The notes under the pieces are model-generated. The model was not told the DNA's origin. It made no database searches and saw only the letters and a list, made by a program, of their open reading frames with translations. The position numbers were made by a program, and so were the translations under genes. A DNA stretch of 64,000 nt, taken from Escherichia phage phiWec179. The stretch is taken from the sequence record LC739533.1, one strand, 5' to 3'. Shown piece by piece: positions 25,581 to 26,482 of this stretch (within the stretch, counting starts at the first letter, position 1; each line of letters opens with the position of its first letter).

Positions 25581-25937
25581 ATGAGCAGTCTTGATCATAA
25601 CATTTGTTACCAACCTCTCACCTGGATTGGTGAGGGTCATTATGCGCAACGTGTTATCGTCTGTGCTGCGAATAAGTATATTCTGAATAATGGTGAAGAG
25701 TTAATTATCCCTTGCGTTCGACATGCAAATCCTGTACTATATGCACAGTTAAGCGTGTTGAAAGAAGCAGGTGTGATCAGCAAAACTTTGTGCACGCCAG
25801 ATAATCAAGGCTTTATCGATCAGTATTACAATTGGTGGAGTCGTGAGGATGCTTACATCATCGCGGAAAATGCTGACCAGATTGACCATGATCGTAATGG
25901 TCACGACCATGAACTATTTAGCGAGGGATTATACTAA
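25581..25937 (+). CDS. Hypothetical protein
   Basis: Start moved to ATG 25581 after RBS AAGGAG. Confidence 0.45.
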   Translation: MSSLDHNICYQPLTWIGEGHYAQRVIVCAANKYILNNGEELIIPCVRHANPVLYAQLSVLKEAGVISKTLCTPDNQGFIDQYYNWWSREDAYIIAENADQIDHDRNGHDHELFSEGLY

Positions 25938-26482
25938 TGTTTATTACAAGCGATTTGCATTTTATGCATAAACGTATTCGAGAGTTTGCTCCTGAATATC
26001 GTCCGTGGGAAGATATGGACCACATGACAGAAGCCCTGATTGAAGCATGGAACAAATGTGCTACTACTCCTGGTGTTAAGATGTGGCATTTGGGCGACTT
26101 CTGTTTCGGGACTGAAGAAGATACCCGTAAGATTGCTTCCCGTCTGCAAGGGGATATCACTTATCTTGTTGGGAACCATGATTACAGCAAGCACCGAGAA
26201 GTGCTCGCAGAGTATGGTGAAGTGGTGTATTATGACGAAGTGAAATACCAGAAGTTGTTCTTCGTCTTAAGTCATTACCCTATTGCCTCCTGGAACAAAC
26301 AGGGTCGCGGTAGCATAATGCTCCACGGACATTCTCACGGATCTTTCCCTGATGAAGCCTACGGTAAGATGCTTGATGTTGGTTGGGATGCACATGGCAA
26401 GATTCTGCACTTTGATGAAGTTATTGAGATGATGGAAAAACGTGAAGTTATCACTGTTGACCATCACAAAATTATCCGATAA
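25937..26482 (+). CDS. Calcineurin-like metallophosphoesterase
   Basis: Motifs DLHF, GDF, GNHD, GHSH in order. Confidence 0.55.
   Translation: MFITSDLHFMHKRIREFAPEYRPWEDMDHMTEALIEAWNKCATTPGVKMWHLGDFCFGTEEDTRKIASRLQGDITYLVGNHDYSKHREVLAEYGEVVYYDEVKYQKLFFVLSHYPIASWNKQGRGSIMLHGHSHGSFPDEAYGKMLDVGWDAHGKILHFDEVIEMMEKREVITVDHHKIIR

What the first reader, a model, noticed from the sequence alone, without database searches (positions are those of the whole stretch)
25937..26482. Multiple metallophosphoesterases in the early region
A calcineurin-like phosphoesterase (DLHF, GDF, GNHD, 25937-26482) and a PPP-type Ser/Thr phosphatase (51105-51842) are both encoded, plus a MazG-like pyrophosphohydrolase. 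Together they suggest manipulation of host phosphosignalling or removal of nucleotide second messengers.
Basis: partly seen in the sequence, partly recalled or inferred. Interest (0 to 1): 0.35.

Follow-up and report, generated by a model that had tools for sequence, protein, structure and literature searches.

The report
Phage RNA-end-healing phosphoesterase without its ligase
The gene is a real, already annotated phage metallophosphoesterase that in related phages sits beside an RNA ligase and a kinase, so it most likely cleans broken RNA ends, but this phage has lost both partners.

Summary
The window is Escherichia phage phiWec181/186 (Phapecoctavirus). ORF 25937-26482 (+, 181 aa) is real. 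It keeps every metallophosphoesterase catalytic residue and folds with high confidence (pLDDT 96.9). It belongs to PHROG 547, the Aquifex aq_1665-like clade. That family includes mycobacteriophage D29 Gp66, published as a 2',3'-cyclic nucleotide phosphodiesterase.

Context argues for RNA 3'-end healing, not phosphosignalling:
- A cREC (cyclic-phosphate-processing) gene lies upstream.
- About 115 of 121 close relatives carry a T4 Rnl1-type RNA ligase and an AAA_33 kinase directly downstream.
- In 39 diverse viral clusters of this enzyme, an Rnl1-type ligase is in the locus in 30 and within three genes in 25. A DNA ligase is within three genes in only 2.
- Natural fusions join the enzyme to an RNA ligase or to a HAD 'Swiss-army-knife' RNA-repair domain.

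This phage lacks both ligase and kinase; a rare 112-aa HExxH ORF fills their slot.

The second enzyme (51105-51842) is an ordinary lambda-phosphatase homologue, 25 kb away and unlinked. The MazG-like gene (29517-30245) does belong to the same predicted repair neighbourhood in phage rV5.

Verdict: observation confirmed, interpretation partly supported, new member of a known kind, modest interest.

The parts
25937..26482 (+). Stand-alone binuclear metallophosphoesterase (181 aa), PHROG 547 / aq_1665-like clade. Proposed 2',3'-cyclic phosphodiesterase and 3'-phosphatase.
25081..25425 (+). cREC (cyclic-phosphate-processing receiver-like) protein, 114 aa. Predicted metal-independent opener of cyclic phosphates.
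   Evidence: Pfam PF20274 cREC_REC E=1.2e-16. Homologous to rV5 ORF83 E=7e-43. Role predicted in PMC7824862 and PMC9503650.
25581..25937 (+). 118-aa protein of family PF26092 (PHROG 839), function unknown. Always between cREC and the phosphoesterase; its stop overlaps the phosphoesterase start.
   Evidence: PHROG 839 E=1.2e-47. Homologues carry PF26092. Same position in nepoznato, PsgM04F, phiWec188 and L006. TAATG overlap.
26497..26835 (+). 112-aa ORF with an HExxH motif (HEAIH). It occupies the slot where relatives carry the Rnl1 RNA ligase and the AAA_33 kinase.
   Evidence: Sequence. PHROG 1365 E=3.9e-15. Only 15 phage records hold it. Junction comparison.
26850..27176 (+). 'hol-like' 108-aa gene. 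It marks the right edge of the variable ligase-kinase slot in all three junction states.
   Evidence: PHROG 18076 E=1.6e-47. 88% identical to the nepoznato gene that follows the kinase.
27991..29106 (+). ATP-dependent DNA ligase (371 aa). Neighbour, and candidate partner under the DNA-end rival.
   Evidence: Pfam DNA_ligase_A_M E=3.4e-10. Homologous to rV5 ORF88.
29517..30245 (+).
   Evidence: PHROG 671 E=9e-28. Pfam PRA-PH E=9.7e-6. Homologous to rV5 ORF85, which lies in the rV5 repair cluster.
58118..58918 (+). Sir2-family protein (266 aa). Homologue of the sirtuin at the centre of the predicted rV5-type repair neighbourhood, but here 32 kb away.
   Evidence: Pfam SIR2 E=9.9e-20. rV5 ORF84 E=3.7e-82.
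51105..51842 (+). Lambda-phosphatase / NinI-like PPP phosphatase (245 aa). The second enzyme of the finding; not part of the repair cassette.
   Evidence: Pfam Metallophos E=1.7e-11. PHROG 246 E=1.3e-72. 1g5b E=2.6e-25. Not detected by the PHROG-547-type profile at E<=0.1.
19056..21113 (-). Cluster of 10 phage tRNA genes, divergent from the block that holds the phosphoesterase. Context only.
   Evidence: ARAGORN. The same juxtaposition of tRNA genes and repair genes occurs in nepoznato and rV5.

Best explanation
The 181-aa protein is an active two-metal phosphodiesterase/phosphatase of the PHROG 547 (aq_1665 / D29 Gp66) clade. Its evolved job is to heal RNA 3' ends: it opens the 2',3'-cyclic phosphate left by metal-independent RNases such as anticodon nucleases, possibly together with the upstream cREC protein, and removes the phosphate to leave a 3'-OH. 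In most relatives an AAA_33 kinase then phosphorylates the 5'-OH and a T4 Rnl1-type ligase seals the break. That is the T4 Pnkp/Rnl1 logic, with a metallophosphoesterase taking the place of T4's HAD phosphatase domain.

In this phage the kinase and ligase genes are absent, and a 112-aa HExxH ORF sits in their slot. The window therefore holds only the 3'-healing half (cREC, the PF26092 protein and the phosphoesterase). It can still hydrolyse cyclic-phosphate ends or free 2',3'-cyclic nucleotides, but it cannot complete repair by itself.

Shown: fold, intact catalytic residues, family membership, gene neighbourhoods, fusions, and absence of ligase and kinase. Inferred: the substrate, the order of steps, and any activity during infection.
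For: Enzyme:
- All catalytic residues are invariant in 91 homologues.

Family precedent:
- D29 gp66 scores PHROG 547 at E=2.4e-51 and aligns over its full length with the window protein (26% identity, E=2e-10).
- It was published as a 2',3'-cyclic nucleotide phosphodiesterase (Dutta et al. 2014, quoted in PMC9038960 and PMC12287305).

Neighbourhood:
- cREC lies two genes upstream.
- In nepoznato the order is cREC, PF26092 protein, phosphoesterase, Rnl1 (Pfam RNA_lig_T4_1 E=1.3e-15), AAA_33 kinase (E=3.5e-10).
- That kinase is 134 aa with no phosphatase domain, so a separate 3'-healing enzyme is needed (inference and PMC3592404).
- PAK_P4 and rV5 show the same partners.

Statistics:
- Of 39 clusters (80% identity) from IMG/VR, an Rnl1-type ligase is in the locus in 30, within 3 genes in 25, and adjacent or fused in 13.
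- Where at least 5 kb flanks both sides, it is in the locus in 25 of 28.
- A DNA ligase is within 3 genes in only 2 of 39.
- Only 733 of 50,697 phage records hold such a ligase at all.

Fusions: phosphoesterase + RNA_ligase (P0002) and phosphoesterase + HAD_SAK_2 (P0025, P0039).

Literature: the same gene set was predicted to be an RNA-repair system in phage V5 (PMC9503650). A metallophosphoesterase does exactly this chemistry in Clostridium thermocellum Pnkp (PMC3675462).
Against: - This genome has no Rnl1-type ligase or AAA_33 kinase in the 151 of 154.5 kb examined, by tblastn or by profile HMM. A healed end has no known phage partner to seal it. By general knowledge, E. coli RtcB wants a 3'-phosphate or cyclic phosphate, not a 3'-OH.
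- The enzyme is nevertheless under strong purifying selection among ligase-less genomes (dN/dS 0.02-0.04).
- Large parts of the family have no such ligase nearby: Staphylococcus, Listeria, Enterococcus and Bacillus phages and mycobacteriophages. The family must therefore have at least one ligase-independent use.
- No biochemical test on RNA ends exists for any member.
- The sample of 39 clusters covers only the nearest clades (33-47% identity).
Confidence: 0.55

Rival explanations
1. Cyclic-nucleotide scavenger. The enzyme works on small molecules, hydrolysing 2',3'-cNMPs, 3',5'-cNMPs or cyclic-phosphate-terminated oligonucleotide signals, to blunt host alarm or defence signalling. It needs no ligase.
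For: D29 Gp66, of the same PHROG, is reported to use 2',3'-cyclic nucleotides, monoesters, diesters and cAMP. The gene is retained intact, with dN/dS 0.02-0.04, in genomes without ligase or kinase. It is also common in phage groups with no Rnl1. Structural neighbours YfcE and MJ0936 are stand-alone phosphodiesterases.
Against: No fusion or neighbourhood ties it to known anti-CBASS, anti-Pycsar or anti-Thoeris genes. The fusions found are to RNA ligase and an RNA-repair HAD domain. The dominant neighbour is an RNA ligase. The in vitro promiscuity of metallophosphoesterases is weak evidence of the natural substrate.
Confidence: 0.18
2. DNA-end processing enzyme or nuclease that works with the nearby ATP-dependent DNA ligase (PdeM-like), or that attacks host DNA.
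Against: The PdeM score is 17 bits against a cut-off of 150. A DNA ligase is within 3 genes in only 2 of 39 clusters, against 25 for RNA ligase. The DNA-degrading enzyme was aligned by its authors with the Bxb1 enzyme, which is PHROG 221, a different family. Its own sequence was not checked.
Confidence: 0.1
3. Evolutionary leftover: after loss of the ligase and kinase the phosphoesterase has no role in this phage and simply has not decayed yet.
For: About 5% of close relatives have lost the ligase-kinase pair in at least two ways: replaced by orf112, or cleanly deleted. A chimera of the phosphoesterase N-terminus with the kinase C-terminus exists in metagenomes (P0001). This shows the cassette does erode.
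Against: The reading frame and catalytic residues are intact. dN/dS is 0.02-0.04 at dS about 0.2 among the ligase-less genomes. That divergence may, however, predate the losses.
Confidence: 0.07
4. Protein phosphatase acting on host phosphoproteins.
Confidence: 0.03

Closest known systems
Mycobacteriophage D29 Gp66 (Dutta, Bhawsinghka and Das Gupta 2014, FEMS Microbiol Lett 361:84; cited in PMC9038960 and PMC12287305)
   Same: Same PHROG family 547 (E=2.4e-51 against 1.9e-55). Full-length alignment with the same motifs. A stand-alone protein of about 190 aa in the phage replication/nucleotide-metabolism gene block. Reported 2',3'-cyclic nucleotide phosphodiesterase.
   Different: Only 26% identical. 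D29 gp66 lies beside a DnaB-like helicase, with no RNA ligase, kinase or cREC in the 10 kb examined. The original paper could not be read here, so details of its substrates rest on how others quote it.
Phosphatase module of Clostridium thermocellum Pnkp (Pnkp-Hen1 RNA repair; PDB 4j6o; PMC3675462)
   Same: [quoted passage not shown] That is the same division of labour as the gene trio in relatives of this phage.
Phage T4 tRNA repair pathway (Pnkp + Rnl1 against the PrrC anticodon nuclease)
   Same: Relatives carry an Rnl1-family ligase (RNA_lig_T4_1) and a P-loop kinase next to the phosphoesterase. The pathway logic is healing followed by sealing.
   Different: T4's 3'-phosphatase is a HAD/DxDxT domain fused to the kinase (PMC3592404). 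Here the kinase is a 134-aa stand-alone protein and the phosphatase role would fall to a metallophosphoesterase, with or without cREC. The window's phage lacks both ligase and kinase.
Predicted sirtuin-centred RNA-repair neighbourhood of phages V5 and Mydo (Iyer, Burroughs, Anantharaman, Aravind 2022, PMC9503650 section 3.7.3)
   Same: rV5 clusters phosphoesterase, kinase, Rnl1, cREC, Sir2, MazG-like and DNA ligase within about 6 kb. The window has clear homologues of five of these: phosphoesterase 1e-34, cREC 7e-43, Sir2 4e-82, MazG-like 6e-17 and DNA ligase 2e-51.
   Different: In the window the genes are dispersed (Sir2 is 32 kb away), and the two defining partners, ligase and kinase, are missing. 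The published system is a computational prediction, never tested.
Aquifex aeolicus aq_1665 (PDB 1xm7; CDD MPP_AQ1575, cd07390)
   Different: A structural-genomics protein of unknown function from a bacterium, so it gives no functional information.
Bacteriophage lambda Ser/Thr phosphatase (NinI; PDB 1g5b), for the second enzyme at 51105-51842
   Same: Full-length homology (E=2.6e-25), the PPP motifs, and PHROG 246 NinI-like.
   Different: 245 aa against 221 aa. It sits among other genes (a DprA-like SLOG gene two genes downstream). Nothing here shows what it does during infection.

Membership tests
Calcineurin-like metallophosphoesterase superfamily | Five motifs that supply the metal ligands and catalytic His: DxH, GD, GNH[DE], H, GHxH | tested here: met
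   D6/H8, G53/D54, G79/N80/H81/D82, H113 and G131/H132/H134 are present and invariant in 91 homologues.
Calcineurin-like metallophosphoesterase superfamily | Beta-sandwich metallophosphoesterase fold | tested here: met
Calcineurin-like metallophosphoesterase superfamily | Score above the Pfam gathering threshold | tested here: not met
   Metallophos_2 scores 22.5 bits against a cut-off of 27. This reflects divergence of the clade; homologues such as P0032 pass.
PHROG 547 / aq_1665-like (MPP_AQ1575) clade, which includes D29 Gp66 | Full-length match to the family profile | tested here: met
   E=1.9e-55 over residues 1-179. D29 gp66, Anthony gp61, PAK_P4 and Staphylococcus phage homologues hit the same profile at 1e-51 to 1e-62.
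PHROG 547 / aq_1665-like (MPP_AQ1575) clade, which includes D29 Gp66 | 2',3'-cyclic nucleotide phosphodiesterase activity | not testable with these tools
   Known only from the published report on D29 Gp66. It needs enzyme assays.
Bacterial Pnkp (kinase-phosphatase-ligase, Pnkp-Hen1 system) | Three-domain architecture, with the phosphatase between kinase and ligase | tested here: not met
   The window protein is 181 aa and a single domain. NCBIfam bacter_Pnkp gives no hit for it, and only the second enzyme hits weakly.
Bacterial Pnkp (kinase-phosphatase-ligase, Pnkp-Hen1 system) | Phosphatase of the lambda-phosphatase-like clade | tested here: not met
T4-type healing-and-sealing RNA repair set | An Rnl1-family RNA ligase encoded by the phage | tested here: not met
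   No tblastn or profile-HMM hit in 151 of 154.5 kb of phiWec186. It is present in about 115 of 121 close relatives.
T4-type healing-and-sealing RNA repair set | A polynucleotide 5'-kinase encoded by the phage | tested here: not met
   No hit to the AAA_33 kinase seeds or profile in the genome. Other kinase families were not searched exhaustively.
T4-type healing-and-sealing RNA repair set | A 3'-end-healing phosphoesterase | tested here: inconclusive
   The phosphoesterase and cREC are present and intact. Activity on RNA ends is inferred from context only.
Predicted V5/Mydo-type sirtuin RNA-repair neighbourhood (PMC9503650) | Sirtuin, T4-like ligase, cREC, kinase and MazG (sometimes with a calcineurin-like enzyme) in one conserved neighbourhood | tested here: not met
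   Homologues of sirtuin, cREC, MazG-like and the phosphoesterase are present. Ligase and kinase are absent, and the sirtuin is 32 kb away.
PdeM, ligase-associated DNA damage response endonuclease (TIGR04123) | Score above the NCBIfam cut-off | tested here: not met
   17.1 bits against a cut-off of 150, E=0.0028, partial match.
PPP / lambda phosphatase family (for 51105-51842) | GDxHG, GDxxDRG and GNHE motifs, and full-length homology to lambda phosphatase | tested here: met
   GDLHG, GDLTDRG and GNHE in the translation. 1g5b E=2.6e-25 over residues 3-230. Pfam Metallophos 45.4 bits against a cut-off of 21.5.
E. coli PrpA/PrpB protein phosphatases (NCBIfam equivalogs; for 51105-51842) | Score above the equivalog cut-off | tested here: not met
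   85 and 77 bits against cut-offs of 326 and 332. It is a homologue, not an equivalog.
MazG / all-alpha NTP pyrophosphohydrolase superfamily (for 29517-30245) | Match above the Pfam cut-off to a superfamily member | tested here: met
   PRA-PH 26.4 bits against a cut-off of 21.3. PHROG 671 E=9e-28.

The most novel reading that the evidence does not exclude
The retained trio (cREC, PF26092 protein, phosphoesterase) is a self-sufficient, ligase-independent counter-defence module. It would destroy molecules bearing a 2',3'-cyclic phosphate (cleaved-RNA ends, 2',3'-cNMPs or cyclic-phosphate-terminated oligonucleotides) that the host uses as an infection alarm or as activators of defence or repair regulators. 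The ligase-kinase pair would then be an optional add-on. This would explain why the enzyme is kept under strong purifying selection in ligase-less phapecoctaviruses, and in Staphylococcus, Listeria and Enterococcus phages and mycobacteriophages that have no RNA ligase of this type nearby.
Probability: 0.12. Interest if true: 0.6.

Novelty: new member of a known kind. Interest (0 to 1): 0.27.

Why it matters
This phosphoesterase family is found in 1,422 of 50,697 phage records and in more than 11,000 protein clusters. In databases it is labelled only 'phosphoesterase'.

The analysis gives it a concrete, testable role: the 3'-end-healing enzyme of a widespread phage RNA-repair cassette. In that cassette a metallophosphoesterase replaces the HAD phosphatase of the textbook T4 pathway.

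The phage in this window is a natural 'healing only' variant. Comparing it with ligase-bearing sister phages on hosts that carry tRNA-cutting defences would show two things: whether the cassette is a counter-defence, and whether the phosphoesterase has a second, ligase-independent use.

None of this overturns current ideas. The association was already sketched computationally, and the gene is already annotated.

Tried and rejected
- Single-sequence AlphaFold2 gave pLDDT 47 and was discarded. The model built with a 91-sequence alignment was used instead.
- The promoter and terminator scan of 21.5-30.5 kb found no more sites than shuffled sequence (22 against 20.8; 4 against 6.2). It says nothing about the transcription unit.
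- PDB sequence searches for the relatives' ligase and kinase and for the 118-aa protein found nothing useful.
- I considered the 2025 report that a mycobacteriophage metallophosphoesterase (A10ZJ24 Gp48) degrades host DNA as a direct precedent. I rejected it because that protein was aligned by its authors with the Bxb1 enzyme, which is PHROG 221, not 547. The Gp48 sequence itself was not checked.
- My first HAD_SAK seeds cross-hit the C-terminus of ordinary phosphoesterases. This is an artefact of seed boundaries, because in P0025 the HAD domain is followed by the phosphoesterase C-terminal segment. HAD counts from those runs were not used.
- The iterated kinase profile may be over-inclusive, so the stricter phmmer-level counts are reported alongside it.
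- The dN/dS comparison among ligase-less genomes cannot separate divergence before the loss of the ligase from divergence after it. orf112 is 100% identical between two genomes whose phosphoesterase genes differ by 3%, which indicates mosaicism.
- The Staphylococcus phage context (46 kb) was uninformative. Three further metagenomic contexts added nothing beyond the fusions.
- Burroughs and Aravind 2016 and Dutta et al. 2014 are not held in the library.
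Full report
**Identity of the window.** The region 24500-28000 is 100% identical to Escherichia phages phiWec181 and phiWec186 (Phapecoctavirus, Stephanstirmvirinae). About 120 related genomes match at 83-94%. The window corresponds to LC739535.1 53451-117450. GenBank already calls the gene 'metallophosphoesterase' and the second one 'serine/threonine protein phosphatase'.

**The observation.**
- ORF 25937-26482 (+, 181 aa) is real. Its ATG overlaps the stop of the upstream gene (TAATG) behind a GAGGGA Shine-Dalgarno sequence.
Together with H113 and GHSH (131-134) they make the full set of metallophosphoesterase metal ligands, invariant in 91 homologues.
- Pfam scores it just under threshold (Metallophos_2, 22.5 against 27 bits), but PHROG 547 'phosphoesterase' gives E=1.9e-55.
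- A single-sequence structure prediction failed (pLDDT 47). With the alignment the model is excellent (pLDDT 96.9, pTM 0.91).
- All other metallophosphoesterases are remote: LpxH 11.3, YfcE 11.2, P. putida nuclease MPE 9.6, lambda phosphatase 9.2, C. thermocellum Pnkp phosphatase 7.7.
- The family is very large: 11,459 clusters at 50% identity with E<=1e-3, and 1,422 of 50,697 phage records.

**The other two enzymes.**
- 51105-51842 is a lambda-phosphatase (NinI-like) homologue with the GDLHG, GDLTDRG and GNHE motifs.
- It is a different subfamily. A profile built from the first enzyme's relatives does not detect it at E<=0.1.
- It lies 25 kb away, between small unknown ORFs, with a DprA-like SLOG gene two genes downstream.
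- The MazG-like gene is 29517-30245.
- The whole + strand block from about 22.5 to 59 kb is a nucleic-acid and nucleotide metabolism region. It holds DNA ligase, RdgC, RNase H-like exonuclease, NT5C, ThyX, NrdAB, a dTDP-rhamnose operon, PhoH and Sir2.

**What surrounds the first enzyme.**
- Two genes upstream is a cREC protein (PF20274, E=1.2e-16). Aravind's group proposed this receiver-like domain as a metal-independent opener of 2',3'-cyclic phosphates in RNA repair and in processing of ADP-ribose derivatives (PMC7824862, PMC9503650).
- Between cREC and the phosphoesterase is a 118-aa protein of family PF26092, function unknown.
- In phage nepoznato the order is cREC, PF26092 protein, phosphoesterase, a 310-aa RNA ligase (Pfam RNA_lig_T4_1, E=1.3e-15), a 134-aa P-loop kinase (AAA_33, E=3.5e-10), then the 'hol-like' gene.
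- In the window the ligase and kinase are missing, and a 112-aa ORF (26497-26835) fills the slot.
- In phiWec188 and phiWec190 the slot is simply empty.
- The breakpoints fall in the short spacers at the gene boundaries.
- Identity bands suggest about 115 of 121 genomes with this type of phosphoesterase keep the ligase. The window's state is therefore a roughly 5% minority.
- Neither tblastn nor profile HMMs built from 61 ligases and 63 kinases find either gene anywhere in the 151 of 154.5 kb of phiWec186 examined.

**Is the link to RNA ligase general?**
- I fetched 80 IMG/VR loci encoding relatives at 33-100% identity, called ORFs, and searched them with seeds and profiles.
- The loci fall into 39 clusters at 80% identity. 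An Rnl1-type ligase is in the locus (16.5 kb or less) in 30 clusters, within three genes in 25, and adjacent or fused in 13.
- Among the 28 clusters with at least 5 kb on both sides, the ligase is in the locus in 25.
- The kinase is within three genes in 14 clusters (strict counting) to 21 (iterated profile).
- A DNA ligase is within three genes in only 2.
- Such ligases occur in only 733 of 50,697 phage records, so this is far beyond chance.
- PAK_P4 shows the same partners, plus an HD hydrolase and NAD-salvage genes.
- Natural fusions agree. P0002 is phosphoesterase + RNA_ligase, in a locus that also has cREC, a second Rnl1 and an AAA_33 kinase. P0025 and P0039 are phosphoesterase + HAD_SAK_2, the 'Swiss-army-knife' RNA-repair phosphatase domain.
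- In rV5, seven genes sit within about 6 kb: phosphoesterase and kinase on one strand, and Rnl1, cREC, Sir2, MazG-like and DNA ligase on the other. The window has clear homologues of all but the ligase and kinase.
- This is the neighbourhood that Iyer et al. 2022 predicted to be a sirtuin-centred RNA-repair system with an 'occasional' calcineurin-like enzyme.

**Experimental precedent.**
- Mycobacteriophage D29 gp66 belongs to the same PHROG (E=2.4e-51) and aligns end to end with the window protein (26% identity, E=2e-10).
[quoted passage not shown] I could not read the original.
- A 2025 paper on a DNA-degrading mycobacteriophage metallophosphoesterase concerns the Bxb1 gp47 type, which is PHROG 221, a different family.

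**Mechanism proposed.**
- The chemistry has a precedent. [quoted passage not shown]
- The relatives' kinase is too small to include a phosphatase domain. T4 Pnkp has one, of HAD type (PMC3592404). A separate 3'-healing enzyme is therefore needed before Rnl1 can seal, and the phosphoesterase, with or without cREC, is the obvious candidate.
- Shown: fold, residues, family, contexts and fusions. Inferred: the substrate and the order of steps.
- For this particular phage the pathway is truncated to the healing half.

**What argues against, and what stays open.**
- The enzyme is kept intact in ligase-less genomes, with dN/dS 0.02-0.04 at dS about 0.2. Mosaicism means the divergence may predate the losses: orf112 is 100% identical between two of those genomes.
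- The family is also common where no Rnl1 is detectable, namely in Staphylococcus, Listeria, Enterococcus and Bacillus phages and in mycobacteriophages.
- A ligase-independent role therefore exists somewhere in the family. Hydrolysis of free 2',3'-cyclic nucleotides or other cyclic signals is the most plausible such role.
- The DNA-end and nuclease rival rests on proximity of a DNA ligase and a sub-threshold PdeM hit (17 against 150 bits), and is weaker.

**Verdict.** The gene is an already annotated member of a known but biochemically almost unstudied phage family. Its RNA-repair association has been sketched in the literature and is quantified here. The local twist, loss of the ligase and kinase with retention of cREC, the PF26092 protein and the phosphoesterase, is a useful natural experiment rather than a surprise.

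Noticed in passing
window 26497-26835 (+): A 112-aa ORF with a zinc-protease-like HExxH motif (HEAIH) sits exactly where relatives carry the RNA ligase and kinase. It is rare (15 phage records, PHROG 1365). In the unrelated phage HelliStehle_Bas95 its homologue overlaps the start of a gene annotated 'polynucleotide kinase'.
   Followed up: partly
window 25581-25937 (+): A 118-aa protein of family PF26092 (PHROG 839) is always wedged between cREC and the phosphoesterase and is translationally coupled to the latter. It also lies next to ligase and phosphoesterase genes in the distant loci L006 and L026. Some records label it 'anti-restriction nuclease'. The local Pfam copy lacks this model, and no solved relative was found.
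   Followed up: partly
proteins P0063 and P0146 (metagenomic homologues): Two homologues of about 495 aa carry an insertion of roughly 330 aa inside catalytic motif V (GH|C...GN|[CS]HGS). It has the N-terminal Cys and C-terminal Asn expected of an intein. No Pfam intein domain was detected at E<=0.01.
   Followed up: partly
protein P0001 (metagenomic, 202 aa): A chimera of the phosphoesterase N-terminus (residues 1-133, 68% identical) with the C-terminal half of the AAA_33 kinase. It looks like a deletion that removed the ligase and fused the two flanking genes, which would be another decay state of the cassette.
   Followed up: no
window 19056-21113 (-): Ten tRNA genes (Met x2, Ile, Pro, Gln, Gly, Thr, Tyr, Ser, Arg) lie just across the divergent junction from the repair genes. 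The same pairing of a tRNA cluster with the ligase/phosphoesterase region occurs in nepoznato and rV5.
   Followed up: no
window 52132-52722 (+) and 58118-58918 (+): A DprA-like SLOG protein (PHROG 768, E=2.7e-62) lies two genes downstream of the lambda-phosphatase homologue. A Sir2 protein lies further on. Both families were proposed to act on NAD/ADP-ribose derivatives in phages.
   Followed up: no
window 42284-45559 (+): The phage carries a complete dTDP-rhamnose pathway as annotated (dTDP-glucose 4,6-dehydratase, glucose-1-phosphate thymidylyltransferase, 3,5-epimerase, reductase). This is unusual cargo whose target (DNA, capsid or host surface) is not obvious.
   Followed up: no
window 47810-48499 (+): A 229-aa protein has a weak N-terminal match to the proteasome/HslV family (Pfam Proteasome E=1.2e-5). 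It lies next to a PhoH-like ATPase at 46521-47276.
   Followed up: no
L006 (JGI Ga0066906_10000109), locus coordinates 7263-11224: A metagenomic phage has the fullest version of the cassette seen: cREC, a PF26092-like protein, a phosphoesterase::RNA-ligase fusion, a PrlF-antitoxin-like 51-aa ORF, a second Rnl1 ligase and an AAA_33 kinase. NAPRTase and a ribose-phosphate pyrophosphokinase lie upstream.
   Followed up: partly
window about 22 kb and about 59 kb: GC skew switches sign at both ends of the + strand gene block (about -0.13 to +0.13 near 22 kb, and +0.17 to -0.10 near 59-60 kb), matching the changes in coding strand.
   Followed up: no
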